Source: an uncultured Gammaproteobacteria bacterium
GTDB lineage: Bacteria; Patescibacteriota; Microgenomatia; UBA12405; JAHJSD01
DNA length: 64,000 nucleotides
Assembly (NCBI GenBank): GCA_964428655.1
Contig: CAYRYE010000001.1
Location: 9,328 to 73,327 of the forward strand
Direction: 5' to 3'
In this document: positions 1 through 16,579 of the stretch, in pieces
Position numbering within the stretch: the first letter of the stretch is position 1
Layout of the letters: each line of letters starts with the position of its first letter
The notes under the pieces: model-generated
The model's input: only the letters and a program-made list of their open reading frames with translations
Told to the model about the DNA's origin: nothing
Databases searched by the model: none
Translations under genes and position numbers: made by a program

Positions 1-220
1 TAAATTCAGGAGTAATCTGCCAGCCAAATTTAGTTCCCGGTCTAGGGAAAATGCCAACATAAAAACAACCTTCACCATCAATAAAACCCACCAAATAATC
101 ATCAGTTATTTTCTTAACTATCTTGGGAGATAGCTTGCCTAACTGAAAGGATTGACCTTTCCTGCTGGTTGTCTGCACTGATAGCTTTTTCACTTCACTT
201 TTAATTATAACGAAGTAGCC
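1..220 (-). CDS. LAGLIDADG-family homing endonuclease (intron-encoded; partial, C-terminus outside the window, start codon not identified)
   Basis: Minus-strand frame open from a TGA at 221-223 reads ...KKITDDYLVGFIDGEGCFYVGIFPRPGTKFGWQITPEF. LVGFIDGEGCF is a canonical LAGLIDADG dodecapeptide (cf. I-CreI LAGFVDGDGS). Confidence 0.7.
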
Positions 221-282
221 TCAGATACTCCAGAGTTTCCAGCATATAGCCAGATTTAAAGACAGCAAGAACCAATTCGTTT
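1..282 (-). mobile_element. Group I intron (partial; continues beyond window start) inserted in the 23S rRNA gene after ...GAGACAGU (E. coli ~2593 region, the I-CreI-type homing site)
   Basis: Minus-strand 23S sequence GGGTTCAGAACGTCGTGAGACAGT (282-306 rc) is followed, instead of the conserved TCGGTCCCTATCTGCC, by about 280 nt of non-rRNA sequence carrying a LAGLIDADG ORF. The upstream exon ends in U as expected for a group I 5' splice site. Confidence 0.7.
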
Positions 283-994
283 ACTGTCTCACGACGTTCT
301 GAACCCAACTAACGCAGCGCTTTAATGGGCGAACAGACCAACCCTTCCCGACTTCTTCGTCAGGAGGATGCGCCAAGTCGACATCGAGGTCGCGATCCGG
401 GCCGTCAATACGGACTATCGGGCCCGACCACGCTGTTATCCCCGGGGTAGCTTTTATCCGTTAAGTTCCGATACATTCCACAAGTATCGGAAGATCACTA
501 AGACCTGCTTTCACACCTGCTCGACCTGTCGGTCTCGCAGTCAAGTTAGCTTCTGCCTTTATACTTACAGTCCGATTTCTATCCGGACCAAGCTAACCTT
601 TGTACGTCCGCGTTACTTTTTAGCAGACGGCTGCCCCAGCCAAACTGACAACCAGACACTGTCCCAGTTTACGTTTCCAGTAAACATTGGTTAGAGTCAA
701 ACATTCTGAAGGGTGGTATTCCACTGATGCCCGAAGGCTCCCACCTATTCTCGACAATCAAAATATTCTTCCCAACGTCAAGTCTCAGTAAAGCTCCACG
801 GGGTCTATCTGTCCTGCCGCCACAAACCGGCATCTTTACCGGTATTTCAATTTCACCGGGTAGAAGGTCGGAGACAGTTGTTCGGTCGTTAAGCCATTCA
901 TACTGGTCGGAACTTACCCGACAATGGACTTCGCTACCTTTGGACGGTTAGAGTTACCGCCGTCGTTCACCGGGGCTTCGGTTCATTGCCCTCT

Positions 995-1046
995 GGGCGA
1001 GGAAATCCTAAATTCGAATCTCCTTGTCCAAAGGACAAATTCCCTT
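995..1046. repeat. 52-nt exact repeat copy A inside 23S (GCCCTCTGGGCGAGGAAATCCTAAATTCGAATCTCCTTGTCCAAAGGACAAA), replacing a variable helix in domain IV
   Basis: Identical to 2408..2459 by direct reading. Contains a T-arm-like GGAGATTCGAATCTCC palindrome and a TTGTCCTTTGGACAA palindrome. Confidence 0.85.
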
Positions 1047-1707
1047 AACCTTCCGGCACTGGACAGGCTTCAGCCCCTATACTTCCCCTTACGGGTTTGC
1101 AGAGACCTGTGTTTTTGATAAACAGTCGCCGAACAATCTTTAGTTGCAGCCTCGAAAATTCGAGGCAGGGCATCTCCCGAAGTTACGCCCAGCTTTTTTG
1201 CCGAGTTCCTTGACCTCCCTTCTCCCGATCACCTTAGTCTACTCGACTTACCCACCTGTGTCGGTTTGCGGTACGGGTTCTATTACTTCTTTCCGCGAAG
1301 CTTTTCTTGGCACCAGAAATCAGCTGAATCGATCGAAAATTCGACCTCTTGATCAATCTCGCCTTAAAACAAAGCGACGGATTTTCCTATCGCTTCTAGC
1401 TTAATTGCTCAATGCGGCAATTTCACTACCACACTCAACTTATCCCAATGCGTCCCTCCCCAGATAATAACAAAATAATAGAAGGGCTGGAATATTAACC
1501 AGCTGTCCATCGCCTACTCCTGATTCATCAGGACTTGGCTTAGGTCCCGCCTAACCCAACGTCGACGAACGTTGCGTTGGAAACCTTGGGTTTTCGGTGA
1601 ACTGGATTCTCACCAGCTTTTGCTGTTACTTATGCCGGCATTCTCACTTCCCAACACTCCAGTTTGACTTACATCAAACCTTCACTGTCTTGGGAACGCT
1701 CCCCTAC

Positions 1708-1737
1708 CATCCCGATACGTGTAAACACTATCGGGAT
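1708..1737. repeat. 28-nt segment (RNA sense UCCCGAUAGUGUUUACACGUAUCGGGAU) shared identically between the 23S and the 16S (21278..21305)
   Basis: Plus strand here reads atcccgatacgtgtaaacactatcgggatc; its reverse complement equals 16S tcccgatagtgtttacacgtatcgggat. It can fold as an imperfect hairpin. The spurious ORFs 1597..1848 and 21226..21417 share the peptide PDTCKHYR(D/E)L for this reason. Confidence 0.85.
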
Positions 1738-1820
1738 CTCCGTCTTCGGTGGTCTGCTTTAGCCCCGGTAAATTTTCGGCGCAGTTTACCAATCCCAATA
1801 CCCATAAGGATATCGGGATC

Positions 1821-1878
<58 letters not shown>

Positions 1879-2407
1879 TTGTCTTCGATAAACTACTTCC
1901 TTCCCCACTTAGCAATCTCCGACATAATGTCGGAGAGACACTTAGGGACCTTAGACGAGAGTCTGGGATCTTTCCCTTTCGCCTGACCAGCTTAGCCCGG
2001 CCAGACTGACTGCCCTTGTAGAAATCAGAGTATTCGGAGTTTGGTTGGGTATCGAGGATTACTCCCCAGTACTCATCCAGTAGCTCTACCCCTCTGATTC
2101 AATCAAGAACGCTATACCTATATATATTTCGGGGAGAACCAGCTATCTCCGGGTTCGATAGGCATATTGCCTCCAACCACAGGTCATCCGAAGGAATTGC
2201 AGCTCCTACCGGTTCGGGCCTCCTCCCCGACTTCTCGGGGATTCACCCTGCCCATGGTTAGCTCACCCGGTTTCGGGTCTCCCGCATGCGACTAAAACGC
2301 CTTATTCAGACTTGCTTTAGCTACGCCTCCTCCTGACTCATCAGGATTAAGCTTGCCGCAAACGAGAACTCGCCGGCTCATTCTTCAATAGGCACGACAT
2401 TACTTCG

Positions 2408-2459
2408 CCCTCTGGGCGAGGAAATCCTAAATTCGAATCTCCTTGTCCAAAGGACAAAG
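2408..2459. repeat. 52-nt exact repeat copy B inside 23S (domain I variable region)
   Basis: Identical to 995..1046. Confidence 0.85.
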
Positions 2460-2510
2460 CTCTGTCTGTTTGTTAGCAAATGGTTTCAGGTTCTATTTCA
2501 CTCCCCTCCC

Positions 2511-2541
<31 letters not shown>

Positions 2542-3159
2542 ATGCGCTATCGGTCAACAAGAGTATTTAGTCTTGGAGGAGTGGTTCCCCCAGATTCCCC
2601 CGATTTTAATCGGGATACTCAGGAATCCCGCTACCAACCTAATATAATTTCGAATACGGGGCTTTCACCCTCTTTGACGATTCATTCCAGAATCTTCTTC
2701 TATTAATTCGGTCAGGATAAAGCGGAACCCTACAACCGGTCGAAAATTCGACCTTTGGACTATTCCCGTTTCGCTCACCGCTACTAAGAGAATCACTGTT
2801 GTTTTCTTTTCCTTTGGGTACTGAGATGTTTCAGTTCCCCAAGTTACTCTCCCGATATCCTTACGGGTATCGGGATATCTTGTATTACTACAAGATGGGT
2901 TTCCCCATTCGGAGACCATCGGATCAAAGGTTGCTGGCACCTCCCCGATGAGTTTCGCCGCCTTCTGCGTCCTTCATCAGCTCTTGTCACCAAGGCATTC
3001 ACCATTTGCCTTAATACTAAACCTTCTTACCCCCGATATGTGCAGGCACTATCGGAGATAAACCCGGTTGACAACTTGATTTTCAAATCAAATTGAAACC
3101 TTAATCAATTGTTAAAGTGCAATTAAATTAAATAAAATTTATTTTTCAATTCGCTCAAA

Positions 3160-3192
3160 ACAAAAACCGAGGCTTTCGCCTCGGTCACTTAG
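3160..3192 (-). terminator. Rho-independent terminator-like hairpin (CCGAGGC-GAAA-GCCTCGG followed by TTTTTGTTTTGAG on the minus strand), downstream of the methyltransferase gene
   Basis: Perfect 7-bp GC-rich stem with a 4-nt loop followed by a U-run when read on the minus strand. Confidence 0.6.
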
Positions 3193-3364
3193 ACATATAT
3201 CCTCCAATGTACTAACGCAATCTTTTACAAGAAATTGTATTAATTAGATTCTTCCTCATATATTGTCTAAAAACGAGACAAAAGCAACTCCTGCTTTATG
3301 TTTCTCAGGTAAGGGTATTATATTGAGGACAAAAGACAATGTCAAGGCTGTGGTTCTAATCACA

Positions 3365-3880
3365 TCAAAACTTGTACAAGTAAAGTTTGCCGGATCTCTT
3401 GGCGTATTTTCTGGAAAACTGATAATTGTTAGAAACTATCAGAATTGGATGAACCAATTCTTTCTTAAGAACTTTTTCTAATTTTCTCATATATTTAGGC
3501 AGTAAATAAACAGTAATCACTGTTGCTTGATTAAAGTCTGCTTGCCAGAAACTTTTAAAATATACTTTAGTTAAGCGAGATAAACCTGCTTTTTTAATTT
3601 TTCTTTTTGATTGCCAAAATAAAATCGGGTCAATTTCATAACCTATTGCTTTTGCTCCTAATTTAGCCGCTTCGATTAAAATCCGACCATCGCCAGAACC
3701 CAAGTCCAGAACCAAATCTTTCTGACCAACTTTTGCCAACTTCAGCATTTTTCTGACTGTTTTAATCGGAGTTGGCTTGAAAACTGGTCCAGCCTGAGAA
3801 GAAAAAGCCGTGTAGTACAAATAAAAAGCAACAACAATTAAAAAAGAAATAAAAATAAGATAGGCTAAAATCAAAACCAT
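3365..3880 (-). CDS. Class I SAM-dependent methyltransferase with N-terminal membrane anchor
   Basis: Motif I VLDLGSGDGRILIEAA, motif-II-like AIGYEIDP, N-terminal TM helix. Confidence 0.75.
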   Translation of the reverse strand: MVLILAYLIFISFLIVVAFYLYYTAFSSQAGPVFKPTPIKTVRKMLKLAKVGQKDLVLDLGSGDGRILIEAAKLGAKAIGYEIDPILFWQSKRKIKKAGLSRLTKVYFKSFWQADFNQATVITVYLLPKYMRKLEKVLKKELVHPILIVSNNYQFSRKYAKRSGKLYLYKF

Positions 3881-3922: not shown

Positions 3923-5362
3923 GTGAACCTTAAACAAACCCGCCTGCCGGACGGGCAGGTTTCACCAACTATCTGGGAGCTGTCAAAAGATTTTAAACCG
4001 GGAATGCGAGTGCCGGGAAAAGTGATGGCCAATAAAAAACTTCTGAAGACAATTGAAGACAAGGTTCTTGACCAATTGGCCAATACTGCTTTTTTACCCG
4101 GAGTAGTGGAAGCTGTTTGGGCTATGCCTGACGCCCATATTGGTTTCGGCGTTCCCATTGGTTGTGTTTTTGCCACTGATCCTGAAAAGGAAGGCATTAT
4201 ATCTCCTGGAGCAATTGGTTTTGACATCAACTGCGGCATCCGTTTAATTACTACTAATTTAACTAAAGAAAAACTTGAACCAAAAACAACTCAACTGATC
4301 GATGCTCTTTTTAAAATAGCTGGAGCTGGGTTAGGAGCAAAAAGCAACCTAAAACTGACTCAAAAAGAAGTTGAGGCAGTTTGCTGTCAAGGAATCCAAT
4401 GGGCAGTTAAAAAAGGTTTTGGCAGAAAAAAGGATCTAAATTTTTGTGAAGAAAAAGGTCGATTAGCCGGCGCTGATCCCCAATTCATTTCTCAACGAGC
4501 TCTCCAGCGGGGCCGACAGCAATTAGGTACTTTAGGCAGCGGTAACCATTATCTGGAAATTCAAGAAGTAACTAAAATCTTTGATTCCCAAAAAGGAAAA
4601 AAGCTAGGCATCAACCAGGAAGGCCAAATCACTATTATGATTCACTGTGGTTCCCGAGGGCTAGGACATCAAATTGCCAGTGATTATATCCGCCAATTTG
4701 GCCAGGCAATGAAAAAATATCAGATTGAGCTACCTAATCGTCAATTGGCTTGTGCGCCATTTAATTCTCCGGAAGGAAAAGCTTATTACTCAGCCATGGC
4801 TGGAGCTGTTAATTACGCCTTTGCCAATCGACAGATTTTAACTGACAAAGTCAGGAAAACCATCAGCAATGTTTTTCAAACTAAGGAAGAAAATTTGGGT
4901 TTAGATTTAGTCTACGATGTGGCTCACAATGTGGCTAAGCTTGAGAGTGGCTTACTCGTCCATCGTAAAGGAGCCACTCGAGCTTTTGGTCCTAATCACC
5001 CGGTTTTGCCAGAAAAATACCAAAAAATAGGCCAACCAGTAATTATTGGCGGTTCAATGGAAACAGCTTCATACTTACTTTTAGGTACTAAAAGGGCAGA
5101 GGAATTAACCTTCGGTTCAACTTGTCATGGTGCCGGCCGAGTGATGTCTCGAAAACAAGCTAGAAAACAAACTCAGGGCATGAATTTACAACAAGATTTA
5201 GAAAAAAAAGGCATTCAAGTCCGAACTGCTTCTTATTCCGGTCTGGCTGAGGAGGCAGGAATAGCCTACAAAGACATTGATTTGGTCGTTCAAACAGTAG
5301 TCGAATCAGGCATCTCAATTCCAATAGTAAAATTCAAACCTTTAGCCAACATCAAAGGTTAA
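3923..5362 (+). CDS. rtcB: RNA-splicing ligase RtcB
   Basis: MPDAHIGFGVPIG, GFDINCG, HCGSRGLGH and a C-terminal GxxxHGAGR region are hallmark RtcB metal-binding/active-site motifs; 479 aa. Confidence 0.9.
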   Translation: MNLKQTRLPDGQVSPTIWELSKDFKPGMRVPGKVMANKKLLKTIEDKVLDQLANTAFLPGVVEAVWAMPDAHIGFGVPIGCVFATDPEKEGIISPGAIGFDINCGIRLITTNLTKEKLEPKTTQLIDALFKIAGAGLGAKSNLKLTQKEVEAVCCQGIQWAVKKGFGRKKDLNFCEEKGRLAGADPQFISQRALQRGRQQLGTLGSGNHYLEIQEVTKIFDSQKGKKLGINQEGQITIMIHCGSRGLGHQIASDYIRQFGQAMKKYQIELPNRQLACAPFNSPEGKAYYSAMAGAVNYAFANRQILTDKVRKTISNVFQTKEENLGLDLVYDVAHNVAKLESGLLVHRKGATRAFGPNHPVLPEKYQKIGQPVIIGGSMETASYLLLGTKRAEELTFGSTCHGAGRVMSRKQARKQTQGMNLQQDLEKKGIQVRTASYSGLAEEAGIAYKDIDLVVQTVVESGISIPIVKFKPLANIKG

Positions 5363-13528: not shown

Positions 13529-13936
13529 CTATTTCCAACTTATCTCATGTGTTTGAGGATCAATTTCTTTGCTGTGGATCCAGTCAAGGATTTTTTGGCG
13601 AGTGACAGCTGAAGTTGTTACCTTGATAGTAATTTCAAGTTTTAATGGACCGATGTAGCGAATAGCAATGTTTTTGTCGGGATAGGGGAGATAAGGAGAA
13701 AGAGGGAAGTTGTTTAAAATATTCTGGACAAATTCTTCTTCAGTGATTCCCTTATCGCCGGTATCAGCAGGGGACTTAGTGGGGATTTTAGTTGGATACG
13801 GGGTGGGAAGAAGTGTTGGTATTACCTCTTCTGCTTTTTGAGAACCGAATAGTTTAAAACCCAGAAGCAGACTGGCGATCAAAGCTAAAAGAATGATTAA
13901 CTGATATTTTTTAACAAAAGCAATTAATTTTTTCAT
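13529..13936 (-). CDS. Hypothetical membrane-anchored protein (N-terminal TM, about 100-aa extracytoplasmic domain); first gene of the T4SS-like operon
   Basis: Signal-anchor MKKLIAFVKKYQLIILLALIASLLLGF; no recognisable family. Confidence 0.4.
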   Translation of the reverse strand: MKKLIAFVKKYQLIILLALIASLLLGFKLFGSQKAEEVIPTLLPTPYPTKIPTKSPADTGDKGITEEEFVQNILNNFPLSPYLPYPDKNIAIRYIGPLKLEITIKVTTSAVTRQKILDWIHSKEIDPQTHEISWK

Positions 13937-13945
13937 TTTTAATAA

Positions 13946-16579
13946 TCAGTGACAGCGGATAAATTCAGCCACGCTGGCAACTGGTACGCTCTTAAAATTA
14001 ATTCTACCAGATCCGCCCCAGGCCTGAGCCACTTGAACCATACCGCTATCTAAATCAGCGCCGATGACGATAGCGATGTGACCATATGCTCCTGATGTCC
14101 AAATAGTGTTATCGCCAATTTGAATAGCAGCCATGTTTTCTCCTGGCGAATATACATGAGTACATTGGCCACAACCGCTTCCAACAAAGTGTTTAGCGTC
14201 ACCACAAGCGGGTAGATTTTGTTCAACGGCTCGTTTAAAACCAACACACTGAAGAGTTCCATCCCAAGCAAGTGATATTTTAAAAGTATCTATGATTCTC
14301 TCGGCAGAACCAATCAATTGTTGTAAGGTTTGGCTAGCTCGAAGACAGATAGCAGTCATGTTCATAGAGTTGTTAGTAACCGCCGAAATATTGCAGTCTT
14401 GAAGAATAAAGTTAATATAACAGGCAACTTTTGCCGATTGATTGTTTATACTTTGACAATAACCAACATCGCTTTCAAAAGGAAGCATGTCTCTTATTTC
14501 ACCAATAAGTTCTTCTTCGGTAATTCCTCTTTCAATTGGCGGAGCTAAAGTTTGGTTATACATTTGCATTGGTCCCAAGTTAATGAAAAACAAAACACCA
14601 AAAACGAGAACAAAAATAAGAGCAAGAGGGACAACAGTAGTAACGGTTCCTATGGCAAGGATAATGCCGACCGGGTAATAAATAATGTCTTTGAACCATT
14701 TCAGGACAGGAATTTTGCCAAGAATATCACGGAGTTTAGTTGATAGACCGAGAGTAAAGAAGTTTAAAACCTCAGGAATTTTAAGTTTTTCAGCAATCTT
14801 TTTGATTAGACTCCAGCCCAATCTTAGAGCTTCTGCTCCCAGCCAAATAAGAATACTGGCCCCACCAGTGGGGATGCCTAAAGCGGTGGCCAAAGCAACG
14901 GCAAGAGTTTCTCCGGCAAGGAGTTCTGCTGCTTTTTCAGCTGTCACAAGAACTCCTTTTTCGGCCAGTCTTTTAACTATTTTTTCAGCGGCGTATTTGT
15001 AAAACTTTGTTTTTATTTTCCCAGTAAGTTTTCCAGTAAGTTTTTTAATCGGGATTTTCTTTTTAACCCATCTGTTAAATCTACTTTTGGCTATGTGCTG
15101 ACCAAAATCGGTAACGGGTCTAACAGTTTCCATAATCGCATAGTTAGGGCTTTCTGAAACTTGGCAGGCGGTGCCACCAGGCTTATAAACAGTATCCCAA
15201 TAAGCGATTGCCGGATCAGAAGAGATTGTTTTGGCTGCTGGTTGTTCTTGGACATAATCGTAGAATTTCTGCCAAACATCAACTAACTCTTGCAATTTTG
15301 GTGTTTGGGCAAGTTGGGTGATGGTATATAAAATTGCTGGGGGGTTATTTTTTCCTGGCCTAAGAACATGGAAAATATTGATTGGTTTTGCAGGCAGGTT
15401 ATTGGTTTGTTCAACAAGAGTTTTTTGCCGAGGCATAGGCGTAACTGCCACCGCTCTGCTAAAGTAAGTTGGCAGGCTGGTGAGGGTTTGAACAGCAAGC
15501 TCTACAGCCGGAGTGACTGTTTCCGCGGATGGATCTAAACCAATGTTTGCCAGGTGTCCAATAACGATTTGCTCAACATTATTTTGGGCGTCTTGCCTGA
15601 TTTGTGTTGGCGTCATGTCTTTGGCAATTGCTTTAAGGATAGGAGTAACAGAAGTAATCATTCCTTGTACTAATTGAGTTCCTTCTTTTTCAGTTAGAGA
15701 AACATTGTGGTTTGACAAGACAATGGCAATAGTTGGAGTAGCGATTAGCGGGGCTATTCCTGACTGATCGGCTGTTTCATGAGCAGTTAGTGTTAAAGCA
15801 GCGGCAATTTGATTTAAGGCTTCAGGTGGTAAAGTAGTCGTGATTGATTCTGACAGTGATTGGGGTAGTTCTGGTGAAGGATTGGCGATGCGATAGGCAA
15901 CAGCCGTTGTGGCAGTTGAAAATTGATTTGTTTTGGCTAGTTTCCGGACTTGATCAACAATTGTTTTTCTGATTTCTGGTTGGGGAATAACTCCTTTGAT
16001 TGTGGTTTGTTGTACAGTGCCTGTTTGAAAAGAAGCAAATACCACTTCTTCTGTTTGAGTAGTGGTTAAAGGAATATTATCAACACTTGTGACGGTTGTT
16101 ATTTGTTCAGTTCTCTGTTCTAAAATTCGAGAGATAACCTTGTCTATTTCTGTTTGACTTAAACCATATCTTTCTAAAATTTTACTTAATTCTGTTTTGT
16201 CTCGGATTTCAGCAACAAGTCTTTCTCTTTCTTCTAAAGCTTGAAGCATTTCTTTAAGATTAGAAGGCACTTCACCATGAGTAATAGTATTGCCAGTGAT
16301 AGGCATTTCTTGATAAAAGAAAGCAGAAATTCTATGGAAGAAATCATAAAGATTTTCTTGTTCTTCTAAAGTAAGACCAAAAAGCTGTTCCAGACGAGCA
16401 AAAAGTTGGTTCAGTTGTTCATCAGGCCAACCCAGTTTTTTGAGCGCTTCTTGTTTGTTTGGAGTATCTGATACTCGAGTCGAGAGATCAAAAAAATATT
16501 CAGCGAGAGCGTTGTTTCTTGGTTCAGTAAGCTGGACTCTTGTTTTGGTTTGACTAATTGCCTCTATCTCTCTGGCCAT
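13946..16579 (-). CDS. Large multi-domain T4SS-associated protein: N-terminal Q/T-rich region, central polytopic membrane segment, C-terminal CHAP-type peptidoglycan hydrolase
   Basis: C-terminus carries C...GQCTHV...YGHIAIVIG, matching the CHAP Cys/His catalytic pattern. Several TM helices around residues 560-640. Resembles VirB1/VirB6-like components of Gram-positive conjugation systems. Confidence 0.55.
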   Translation of the reverse strand: MAREIEAISQTKTRVQLTEPRNNALAEYFFDLSTRVSDTPNKQEALKKLGWPDEQLNQLFARLEQLFGLTLEEQENLYDFFHRISAFFYQEMPITGNTITHGEVPSNLKEMLQALEERERLVAEIRDKTELSKILERYGLSQTEIDKVISRILEQRTEQITTVTSVDNIPLTTTQTEEVVFASFQTGTVQQTTIKGVIPQPEIRKTIVDQVRKLAKTNQFSTATTAVAYRIANPSPELPQSLSESITTTLPPEALNQIAAALTLTAHETADQSGIAPLIATPTIAIVLSNHNVSLTEKEGTQLVQGMITSVTPILKAIAKDMTPTQIRQDAQNNVEQIVIGHLANIGLDPSAETVTPAVELAVQTLTSLPTYFSRAVAVTPMPRQKTLVEQTNNLPAKPINIFHVLRPGKNNPPAILYTITQLAQTPKLQELVDVWQKFYDYVQEQPAAKTISSDPAIAYWDTVYKPGGTACQVSESPNYAIMETVRPVTDFGQHIAKSRFNRWVKKKIPIKKLTGKLTGKIKTKFYKYAAEKIVKRLAEKGVLVTAEKAAELLAGETLAVALATALGIPTGGASILIWLGAEALRLGWSLIKKIAEKLKIPEVLNFFTLGLSTKLRDILGKIPVLKWFKDIIYYPVGIILAIGTVTTVVPLALIFVLVFGVLFFINLGPMQMYNQTLAPPIERGITEEELIGEIRDMLPFESDVGYCQSINNQSAKVACYINFILQDCNISAVTNNSMNMTAICLRASQTLQQLIGSAERIIDTFKISLAWDGTLQCVGFKRAVEQNLPACGDAKHFVGSGCGQCTHVYSPGENMAAIQIGDNTIWTSGAYGHIAIVIGADLDSGMVQVAQAWGGSGRINFKSVPVASVAEFIRCH

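What the first reader, a model, noticed from the sequence alone, without database searches (positions are those of the whole stretch)
1..306. Group I intron with LAGLIDADG homing-endonuclease ORF in the 23S rRNA at the I-CreI-type site
The minus-strand 23S sequence ...GGGTTCAGAACGTCGTGAGACAGT is followed not by the universally conserved TCGGTCCCTATCTGCC but by about 280 nt of foreign sequence. The ORF in that sequence reads ...KKITDDYLVGFIDGEGCFYVGIFPRPGTKFGWQITPEF, a canonical LAGLIDADG motif. The exon ends in U, as group I 5' splice sites require. This position (E. coli about 2593) is the homing site of the I-CreI/I-CeuI endonuclease family. rRNA introns are a known feature of CPR bacteria, but this is a clean example and the endonuclease may have a usable specificity. 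Only the 5' part is in the window.
Basis: partly seen in the sequence, partly recalled or inferred. Interest (0 to 1): 0.6.

Follow-up and report, generated by a model that had tools for sequence, protein, structure and literature searches.

The report
Group I intron in CPR 23S rRNA
The left edge of the window holds the first 282 bases of a 785-base group I intron that carries a LAGLIDADG homing-endonuclease gene and interrupts the 23S rRNA of a CPR bacterium after position 2604, a kind of element already catalogued in these bacteria.

Summary
On the minus strand, 23S rRNA homology stops after ...GAGACAGU at window 283. The remaining 282 nt are foreign and encode a LAGLIDADG motif.

The parent contig, identical over 3,880 nt, completes the picture:
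- The insertion is 785 nt and ends in G.
- The 23S resumes immediately with TCGGACC... and the sarcin-ricin loop.
- Among 30 homologous introns at the same site, 93.8% of the proposed P1-P9.2 pair cells (including the P3/P7 pseudoknot) form base pairs. Only 31-39% do when partners are slid. Fifty of 73 pairs show compensatory changes.
- The classic P, Q, R and S core elements are present.
- The 182-aa ORF lies in the P6a loop. It is a single-domain LAGLIDADG_1 protein with the catalytic residues intact.

The intron follows E. coli U2604, 11 nt downstream of the I-CreI site (2593). The protein is only 27% identical to I-CreI.

Tsurumaki et al. 2024 already list position 2604 as a frequent LAGLIDADG_1, group-I-like insertion site in CPR 23S genes, so this is an ordinary instance. 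Splicing and nuclease activity are inferred, not shown. Rfam's general group I model did not detect it.

The parts
283..3024 (-). 23S rRNA 5' exon, equivalent to E. coli positions 1-2604. The last base, window 283, corresponds to U2604.
   Evidence: Rfam RF02541, 2101 bits. Numbering by alignment to E. coli MG1655 rrlH.
1..282 (-). First 282 nt of a 785-nt group I intron. The other 503 nt lie beyond the left edge of the window, at L001 13881-14383.
   Evidence: The parent contig L001 is 100% identical to window 1-3880. The 3' exon resumes at L001 14384.
283..288 (-). P1 5' strand, exon GACAGU. The 5' splice site lies between window 283 and 282.
   Evidence: Pairs with GCUGUC. All 6 pairs, including the U.G at the splice site, are present in 30 of 30 homologues.
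261..266 (-). Internal guide sequence / P1 3' strand, GCUGUC.
269..274 (-). Candidate P10 guide UGGUUC, complementary to 3' exon bases +3 to +8 (GGACCA).
   Evidence: 6-bp match in L001. Across 36 introns the mean best helix is 4.4 bp, against 3.7 bp in shuffles, so support is modest.
249..254 (-). P3 5' strand UCUGGC. Its partner GCCAGA is at L001 14264-14269, outside the window.
   Evidence: 6 pairs, 100% paired, 3 with compensatory changes.
236..246 (-). P element UAUGCUGGAAA, containing the P4 5' strand (window 239-244).
   Evidence: Near-invariant in 38 introns. P4 is 100% paired.
172..234 (-). P5 / P5a / P5b extension. P5: 231-234 with 172-175. P5a: 218-224 with 178-185. P5b hairpin: 212-216 with 192-196. 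Includes the conserved A-rich strand AGUGAAAA.
   Evidence: P5 has 2 of 4 and P5a 7 of 7 pairs with compensatory changes, 99-100% paired. P5b is 76% paired.
157..170 (-). Q element AACCAGCAGGAAAG, containing the P4 3' strand (window 163-168) and the start of P6.
   Evidence: The same bases are read as 'NQQERL' in many database proteins.
146..155 (-). P6a 5' strand UCAAUCCUUU. Its partner AAAGGAUUGA is at L001 14236-14245, starting on the last base of the ORF stop codon (L001 14234-14236). This helix closes the loop that holds the ORF.
   Evidence: Perfect 10-bp complement in L001. All 10 columns covary, 84% paired.
1..193 (-). 5' part of the homing-endonuclease ORF: 182 aa if it starts at the GTG at 193-191, 177 aa from the GTG at 178-176. 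The LAGLIDADG motif YLVGFIDGEG is at 97-68. The ORF ends at L001 14236, outside the window.
   Evidence: ORF list. PF00961, 68.2 bits. PDB hits. The start codon is uncertain.

Best explanation
The finding is the 5' end of a mobile group I intron, 785 nt in full, inserted in the 23S rRNA gene of a CPR (Patescibacteria, Microgenomates-like) bacterium. It lies between the equivalents of E. coli U2604 and U2605, which I recall as helix 93 of the peptidyl-transferase region.

**Anatomy (shown)**
- P1 forms between exon GACAGU and the guide GCUGUC, with U.G at the splice site.
- There is no P2.
- The core comprises P3, P4, P5-P5a-P5b, P6-P6a, P7, P8, P9 (GCGA tetraloop), P9.1 and P9.2.
- The intron ends in G.
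- The endonuclease ORF fills the loop of P6a.

**Mechanism (inferred from the group I family)**
- An external guanosine bound at P7 attacks after U2604.
- The freed 3'-OH of U2604 then attacks after the terminal G, which rejoins the exons into an intact 23S rRNA.
- The ORF encodes a single-domain LAGLIDADG_1 protein of 182 aa or fewer. By analogy with I-CreI and the CPR enzyme I-ShaI, it would act as a homodimer and cut the intron-less 23S gene around 2604/2605.
- Repair of that break copies the intron into the cut allele (homing).
For: **The insertion**
- Window 1-3880 is identical to contig L001. A second assembly is identical to L001 over this region.
- The insertion spans L001 13599-14383 and is flanked by contiguous 23S sequence.
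- The joined exons align to E. coli 23S as a single piece. The junction falls at 2604|2605.

**The RNA core**
- At least 40 of the 80 best related loci carry an ORF-bearing insertion at exactly this junction.
- MAFFT alignments show P (AUGCUGGAAA), Q (AAUCAGCAGG), R (UCAGAGACUAUACGCC) and S (AAGAUAUAGUCCGA) elements.
- Named-structure count on 30 sequences: 93.8% of cells paired against 77% in shuffles and 31-39% when slid. Fifty of 73 pairs have double-sided changes. Covariation score is 0.50 against about 0.10.
- 37 of 38 introns end in G.

**The protein**
- PF00961, E=1.3e-18.
- PDB LAGLIDADG hits to E=9e-43.
- E41, Q68 and K128 align with I-CreI D20, Q47 and K98.

**Context**
- Related organisms (80-91% 23S identity) lack this intron but carry insertions at 2593 and about 2500, the patchy pattern expected of mobile introns.
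- The literature lists position 2604 with LAGLIDADG_1 as a frequent CPR 23S insertion (PMC11270868).
- The host's DnaA is closest to Patescibacteria and Shapirobacteria proteins.
Against: - Rfam's general group I model RF00028 gave no hit at E<=10 on the whole locus, on a relative, or on the 3' half alone. Others report the same insensitivity of this model (PMC6125680). Only 45% of CPR 23S insertions matched it in PMC11270868.
- No canonical start codon lies near the LAGLIDADG helix. The only in-frame GTGs sit inside conserved core nucleotides (P5b/P5a). Translation would therefore have to read through P5, P4 and P6, or use a non-canonical start.
- The target shows no clear two-fold symmetry: 5 of 11 symmetric positions at the insertion point.
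- No RNA data were available, so splicing is not shown.
Confidence: 0.9

Rival explanations
1. One reading: an intron at the I-CreI site (E. coli 2593) encoding an I-CreI/I-CeuI-family enzyme with that specificity.
For: - The same region of domain V is affected, and the 5' exon contains the I-CreI half-site ...AACGTCGTGAGACAG.
- The protein is a single-domain LAGLIDADG enzyme that aligns to I-CreI at E=2e-11.
Against: - Alignment to E. coli rrlH puts the junction at 2604|2605. Position 2593 is uninterrupted in the window.
- Real 2593 insertions are seen separately in other loci (L044, L048, L090).
- Identity to I-CreI is only 27%, far below the hits to I-OnuI-type domains.
Confidence: 0.02
2. 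A non-splicing intervening sequence. The insertion would be cut out by RNase III or similar without ligation, leaving a fragmented 23S rRNA as in known bacterial IVSs, and the group I features would be relics.
For: - Fragmenting IVSs are known in bacterial 23S rRNA and are suspected in CPR (PMC11270868).
- RF00028 does not recognise the element.
Against: - All catalytic-core helices, the U.G splice-site pair and the terminal G are conserved, with compensatory changes across several phyla. This implies selection on the fold.
- From my own knowledge, known IVS sites lie in helices 25 and 45, not in the peptidyl-transferase centre. PMC11270868 places the RNase III-type IVS sites at 23IS2 and 23IS4, not at the group I intron sites.
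Confidence: 0.04
3. The intron still splices, but the ORF no longer works as a homing endonuclease. It would be an untranslated remnant or a maturase-only protein, and the intron would be inherited vertically.
For: - There is no ATG, and no start codon close to the motif. The in-frame GTGs lie inside conserved RNA core.
- From my own knowledge, CPR genomes usually carry a single rRNA operon, so intron-less targets within a cell are rare.
- Target symmetry is weak.
Against: - The ORF is intact over 182 codons with all invariant family residues and the catalytic E/Q/K.
- The closest relative (59% identity) keeps the same extended reading frame through the Q element.
- Presence and absence are patchy among related 23S genes.
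- The family is found in 581 species-level genomes of many phyla.
Confidence: 0.2

Closest known systems
CPR 23S rRNA insertion class at position 2604 (the text implies '23IS13'), with LAGLIDADG_1; Tsurumaki et al. 2024, J Bacteriol (PMC11270868)
   Same: Same gene, same E. coli position, same protein family (single-domain LAGLIDADG_1), group-I-like RNA, and a CPR host.
   Different: No difference in kind. That paper gives no structure model or enzyme assay for this site. Here the core is resolved by covariation, and the same intron family is also seen in genomes labelled as non-CPR phyla.
I-ShaI intron of Ca. Shapirobacteria (23IS7 in PMC11270868), the only biochemically tested CPR rRNA homing endonuclease
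   Same: CPR 23S rRNA, group I-like intron with a central ORF, and a single-domain LAGLIDADG_1 of about 19 kDa. That enzyme was shown to dimerise and to cut its insertion site. The host here is related to Shapirobacteria.
   Different: It occupies a different insertion site (23IS7, which by the paper's site list corresponds to position 1931), so the DNA target differs. I-ShaI's flanks matched Rfam's group I model, whereas this intron did not.
Chlamydomonas reinhardtii chloroplast LSU intron and I-CreI (site 2593)
   Same: A group I intron in domain V of the large-subunit rRNA, with a homodimer-type single-motif LAGLIDADG enzyme. The catalytic D/E, Q and K residues are conserved. From memory, the I-CreI ORF also sits in a P6 loop.
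   Different: The insertion is 11 nt further 3' (2604 against 2593). Protein identity is only 27%. No P7.1/P7.2-type extra hairpins lie between P3' and P8. Introns at 2593 are IA3 (PMC6125680).
I-OnuI-type monomeric LAGLIDADG meganucleases (PDB 4lq0, 6bcg, 5esp and others) and the 170-aa single-domain entry 5gkk
   Same: These are the best sequence matches among solved structures (E=9e-43 to 1e-29). The query aligns to each of their two domains.
   Different: Apart from 5gkk, these are two-domain monomers. From my own knowledge they come from fungal mitochondrial genes, recognise asymmetric sites, and do not target rRNA position 2604.
Tetrahymena LSU rRNA group I intron (textbook core)
   Same: The S element AAGAUAUAGUCCGA is almost identical to Tetrahymena's AAGAUAUAGUCGGA, and the R element is of the UCAGAGACUA type. 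P7 has a bulged A. There is an extended P5 domain with an A-rich strand. This comparison is from memory.
   Different: Different insertion site (1925). No P2/P2.1 here. Tetrahymena has no ORF. The subgroup of the present intron was not determined.

Membership tests
Group I intron | 5' splice site follows a U that forms a U.G wobble with the internal guide sequence in P1 | tested here: met
   Exon GACAGU pairs with intron GCUGUC. The U.G pair is present in 30 of 30 sequences (columns 8/56).
Group I intron | Intron ends in a guanosine (omega G) immediately before the 3' exon | tested here: met
   L001 intron ends ...GUAACAGUAAUG|UCGG. 37 of 38 homologues end in G.
Group I intron | Conserved core of P3-P9 with the P4-P6 and P3-P7-P8 domains and the P3/P7 pseudoknot, supported by covariation | tested here: met
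   93.8% of cells paired, against 31-39% when partners are slid. Fifty of 73 pairs have double-sided changes. P3, P5, P5a, P6a, P7, P8, P9, P9.1 and P9.2 all covary.
Group I intron | Conserved P, Q, R and S sequence elements | tested here: met
   AUGCUGGAAA, AAUCAGCAGG, UCAGAGACUAUACGCC and AAGAUAUAGUCCGA are near-invariant in 38 introns. The comparison with the published consensus is from my own knowledge.
Group I intron | Detection by the general Rfam covariance model RF00028 (a detection aid, not a defining property) | tested here: not met
   No hit at E<=10 on L001 10500-15000, on L013, or on the 3' half alone. The model is reported to miss genuine introns that subtype models find (PMC6125680). 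The roughly 500-nt ORF-filled loop of P6a splits the core.
Group I intron | Guanosine-dependent self-splicing that yields ligated exons | not testable with these tools
   No RNA data. This needs in vitro splicing or RNA-seq.
LAGLIDADG homing endonuclease, single-domain (homodimer) type | One LAGLIDADG_1 domain above Pfam's threshold in a protein of about 150-180 aa | tested here: met
   PF00961, 68.2 bits against a 23.1 cut-off, residues 34-138 of 182, one stretch.
LAGLIDADG homing endonuclease, single-domain (homodimer) type | Catalytic acidic residue at the end of the motif, plus the Q and K of the active site | tested here: met
   GFIDGEG: E41 aligns with I-CreI D20, Q68 with Q47 and K128 with K98. 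E41 and Q68 are invariant and K128 at least 90% conserved in 33 homologues. The I-CreI sequence and residue roles are from memory.
LAGLIDADG homing endonuclease, single-domain (homodimer) type | Dimerises and cleaves the intron-less allele at its own insertion site | not testable with these tools
   Shown for I-ShaI at another site (PMC11270868), not for this protein. Symmetry of the putative target is weak.
I-CreI-site (L2593) intron / I-CreI orthologue | Insertion after E. coli 23S position 2593 | tested here: not met
   The junction maps to 2604|2605. Position 2593 is intact in the 5' exon.
I-CreI-site (L2593) intron / I-CreI orthologue | Close protein similarity to I-CreI/I-MsoI | tested here: not met
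   27% identity, E=2e-11. I-CreI- and I-MsoI-derived PDB chains score about 1e-11, against 9e-43 for I-OnuI-type domains.
CPR 23S rRNA insertion class at position 2604 (PMC11270868) | Insertion at position 2604 of 23S rRNA encoding LAGLIDADG_1, in a CPR genome | tested here: met
   Position, Pfam domain, and host DnaA closest to Patescibacteria and Shapirobacteria proteins at 55-73% identity.

The most novel reading that the evidence does not exclude
The 2604-site introns may form one coherent, actively spreading family that extends well beyond CPR. Related copies occur in genomes labelled Actinomycetota, Chloroflexota, Acidobacteriota, Omnitrophota and Armatimonadota, some on megabase contigs. 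Its endonuclease would have an uncharacterised specificity for a near-universal 23S sequence in the peptidyl-transferase region. In this sublineage the enzyme may be translated through the ribozyme core (P5-P4-P6), which would make translation and RNA folding compete.
Probability: 0.3. Interest if true: 0.35.

Novelty: already known. Interest (0 to 1): 0.18.

Why it matters
- **Genome annotation.** The intron splits the 23S gene. Rfam's rRNA model did not report the 287-nt 3' exon as a separate match, and RF00028 missed the intron. The ORF's apparent N-terminus is partly conserved ribozyme sequence.
- **Biology.** This adds one well-resolved example, with a covariation-backed secondary structure, to the published catalogue of CPR rRNA introns.
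- **Possible use.** The enzyme class at site 2604 has not been tested biochemically. It could provide a meganuclease scaffold with a new target, but nothing here shows activity.

Tried and rejected
- **Rfam RF00028** found nothing on the whole locus, on a relative, or on the isolated 3' half. Two multi-source Rfam calls failed internally.
- **Target symmetry.** By eye the target looked like a pseudo-palindrome centred on the insertion point. Counting gave only 5 of 11 symmetric positions (23S background mean 2.7; about 1% of positions reach 7 or more). I dropped it as evidence and make no cleavage-site prediction.
- **P10 pairing** is only modestly better than shuffles, 4.4 against 3.7 bp. It is kept as a candidate only.
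- **Organism name.** An exact-sequence cluster look-up returned no names. A DnaA homologue search gave the lineage instead.
- **Literature.** Searches for 'L2604' found nothing relevant, and a search for PDB 5gkk found nothing.
- **Intron subgroup (IA-IE)** was not assigned, because subtype models (GISSD) are not available here. The single hairpin between P3' and J8/7 argues against IA.
- **Small E. coli record.** A 2.9-kb 'plasmid' record of E. coli 23S was unusable for numbering. MG1655 rrlH was used instead.

Full report
**1. The observation**

Rfam's bacterial LSU rRNA model matches the minus strand of the window from 3024 downwards (2101 bits). When only window 1-620 is searched, the alignment ends at window 281, with the last confidently aligned bases ...GUCGUGAGACAGU. 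The sequence then continues AAACGAATTGGTTCTTGCTGTC.... The frame read from window 283 gives ...KKITDDYLVGFIDGEGCFYVGIFPRPGTKFGWQITPEF, running off the window edge. The foreign stretch inside the window is 282 nt (window 1-282).

**2. Completing the element**

- I looked up the neighbouring methyltransferase protein (window 3365-3880) in public assemblies. This returned a 428-kb JGI contig (L001) and a second contig (L002).
- L001 and L002 are each 100% identical to window 1-3880. L001 and L002 are identical over the whole rRNA region.
- The coordinate mapping is L001 = 13881 minus the window position.
- On L001 the foreign sequence runs 13599-14383 (785 nt) and ends ...GGGTAACAGTAATG.
- It is followed directly by TCGGACCATATCCGCCG..., the sarcin-ricin loop AGTACGAGAGGACC, and the rest of the 23S 3' end.
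- The two exons joined together align to E. coli 23S as one uninterrupted piece in all 5,426 E. coli genomes.
- Among related loci that carry introns elsewhere, 23 read GAGACAGT|TCGG without interruption. The insertion is therefore precise.

**3. Where it sits**

Aligned to E. coli MG1655 rrlH, the last exon base is U2604 and the first base of the 3' exon is U2605. Landmark bases A2451, U2585, A2602 and A2660 check out. The I-CreI site, 2593, lies 11 nt upstream and is intact in this gene. Genuine insertions at 2593 do occur, but in other loci (L044, L048, L090).

**4. The RNA**

- A scan of one genome per species with an alignment of the protein's homologues found 581 relatives. The best 80 were fetched.
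- At least 40 of these carry an ORF-bearing insertion of about 700-890 nt at exactly the 2604|2605 junction.
- More distant relatives sit at about 1931 and about 1952, which are other known LSU intron sites.
- MAFFT alignments of the 5' and 3' non-coding parts show the classic group I core elements:
  - P: AUGCUGGAAA
  - Q: AAUCAGCAGGAAAG
  - R: CCUCAGAGACUAUACGCC
  - S: AAGAUAUAGUCCGA
- I deleted the ORF-filled loop from 30 introns and aligned them without reference to any structure (A2). I then counted pairs for a structure that I named from L001. It contains P1, P3 (as a pseudoknot with P7), P4, P5, P5a, P5b, P6a, P7 with a bulged A, P8, P9 with an invariant GCGA loop, P9.1 and P9.2.
- Results of that count:
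  - 93.8% of 2,166 cells form standard pairs, against 77% in column shuffles (0 of 500 reach it) and 31-39% when partners are slid by 1-3 columns.
  - 50 of 73 pairs have changes on both sides.
  - The covariation score is 0.50, against about 0.10 for the slid controls.
  - P1, including the U.G at the splice site, is invariant, as expected because the exon is fixed.
- 37 of 38 introns end in G.
- A P10 pairing is possible: 3' exon GGACCA with UGGUUC, two bases upstream of the guide. It is only modestly supported across the family.
- The window contains P1, the 5' strand of P3, P4, P5-P5a-P5b, and the 5' strand of P6a (coordinates verified). P6a 3', P7, P3', P8 and P9-P9.2 lie 356-489 nt beyond the window's left edge.

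**5. Why Rfam missed it**

RF00028 gave no hit at E<=10 on the full locus, on a relative, or on the isolated 3' half. I treat this as a limit of the detector rather than evidence against membership, for three reasons:
- The core is split by the roughly 500-nt ORF-filled loop of P6a.
- Nawrocki et al. report that RF00028 found no significant hit in archaeal sequence data, whereas the IA3 and IB4 subtype models found the introns they report (PMC6125680).
- Only 45% of CPR 23S insertions matched the Rfam model in Tsurumaki et al. (PMC11270868).

The subgroup remains unassigned. A single hairpin between P3' and J8/7 argues against IA, which is the type found at 2593.

**6. The protein**

- The ORF runs L001 13688-14236 (182 aa from a GTG). 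It has one LAGLIDADG_1 domain (PF00961, 68.2 bits).
- It matches solved LAGLIDADG enzymes strongly. I-OnuI-type domains score down to E=9e-43 and the 170-aa entry 5gkk scores 3e-29. I-CreI and I-MsoI derivatives score only about 1e-11.
- Against I-CreI it is 27% identical. E41, Q68 and K128 align to the catalytic D20, Q47 and K98 (the I-CreI sequence and residue roles are from memory). E41 and Q68 are invariant, and K128 at least 90% conserved, in 33 homologues.
- The ORF is enclosed by a perfect 10-bp helix: UCAAUCCUUU at window 155-146 pairs with AAAGGAUUGA at L001 14236-14245, which starts on the last base of the stop codon. This helix covaries in all ten columns. The ORF therefore sits in the loop of P6a.
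- The start codon is uncertain:
  - Most homologues begin about 8 residues before the motif.
  - Here no ATG, GTG or TTG lies in that position.
  - The two in-frame GTGs (window 193-191 and 178-176) are conserved core nucleotides.
  - The closest relative (59% identity) keeps the same long frame through the Q element, so an N-terminal extension read through P5, P4 and P6 is possible.
- In many other database proteins the 'NQQERL' N-terminus is simply the Q element translated.

**7. Host and context**

- The host's DnaA is 55-73% identical to proteins named Patescibacteria group, Ca. Shapirobacteria and Ca. Woesebacteria. The host is therefore a CPR bacterium of the Microgenomates type.
- The 23S is not linked to 16S or 5S genes. 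It lies between a methyltransferase gene and an S1-domain gene.
- Two metagenome contigs share the lineage-specific 3' exon sequence but have an uninterrupted 2604 junction. They are 80-91% identical in 23S and carry insertions at 2593 and about 2500 instead. This is the patchy distribution expected of mobile introns.

**8. Mechanism**

*Shown:* the anatomy described above.

*Inferred from the group I and LAGLIDADG families:*
- Guanosine-initiated two-step self-splicing restores the 23S at U2604-U2605.
- The protein acts as a homodimer that cuts intron-less alleles near 2604/2605 and triggers copying of the intron by repair.

I could not predict the cut site, because the target has only 5 of 11 symmetric positions at the insertion point.

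**9. Comparison with what is known, and novelty**

- Tsurumaki et al. 2024 (PMC11270868) surveyed 348 CPR 23S genes. They name positions 1917, 1931, 1952, 2593, 2604 and 2657 as sites where insertions predominantly encode LAGLIDADG_1.
- They note that group I introns at several of their sites (23IS9-11, 13 and 14) had not been reported in other bacteria. By the order of their site list, 23IS13 corresponds to position 2604.
- The enzyme they characterised, I-ShaI, comes from a different site (23IS7).
- The present element is therefore an instance of a published class, and I rate it 'already known'.

What this analysis adds is modest:
- a covariation-backed secondary structure for the 2604 class;
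- the corrected site;
- the observation that the same intron family occurs in genomes labelled as several non-CPR phyla, some on megabase contigs.

**10. Verdict**

Interest is low (0.18).

Noticed in passing
window 988-1039 and 2407-2458: A 52-nt stretch is repeated perfectly at two places inside the 23S gene. Both copies are extra relative to the bacterial LSU model and E. coli (after model position 583, and near E. coli 1852-1882). In the rRNA sense each copy folds into the same hairpin of roughly 20 bp capping a different helix. It may be a duplicated or mobile expansion segment.
   Followed up: partly
window 1152-1163, 1333-1344, 2740-2751 (and, as its reverse complement TCGAATTTTCGA, L001 about 14574-14585 in the 3' exon): The palindrome TCGAAAATTCGA occurs three times in the 64-kb window, all inside the 23S gene (expected 0.03). 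It forms small hairpin caps.
   Followed up: partly
window 1792-1818 and 2850-2876: A 27-nt inverted repeat, 93% complementary, links two 23S regions. Each arm is itself hairpin-like, so this looks like a third case of a similar hairpin sequence used at two rRNA positions.
   Followed up: no
L090 12014-12377 and 12469-13206; L089; L044; L048: Related 23S genes that lack the 2604 intron carry insertions at E. coli about 2500 and at 2593, the true I-CreI site.
   Followed up: partly
L007-L086: The same 2604-site LAGLIDADG intron occurs in genomes labelled Chloroflexota, Actinomycetota, Acidobacteriota, Omnitrophota, Capsulimonadaceae and Gammaproteobacteria, some on contigs of 1-4 Mb, not only in CPR. 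There are 581 relatives of the endonuclease among species-representative genomes. The taxon labels were not checked.
   Followed up: partly
protein alignment A1; window 157-170: Many database homologues start with '...(D)NQQERL'. This is the conserved Q element AAUCAGCAGGAAAGGCU of the ribozyme read as protein, so it is probably an over-extended gene call rather than real protein sequence.
   Followed up: partly
window 3923-5362 (+): An RtcB RNA-ligase gene lies about 900 nt from the 5' end of the intron-bearing, insertion-rich 23S gene. Group I splicing needs no ligase, so this may be coincidence.
   Followed up: no
window 283-3024 and L001 14384-14670: When the intron is present, Rfam's LSU model reports a 'complete' match ending inside the intron (window 215). 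It did not report the 287-nt 3' exon as a separate match. Automated annotation would therefore truncate this 23S gene.
   Followed up: yes
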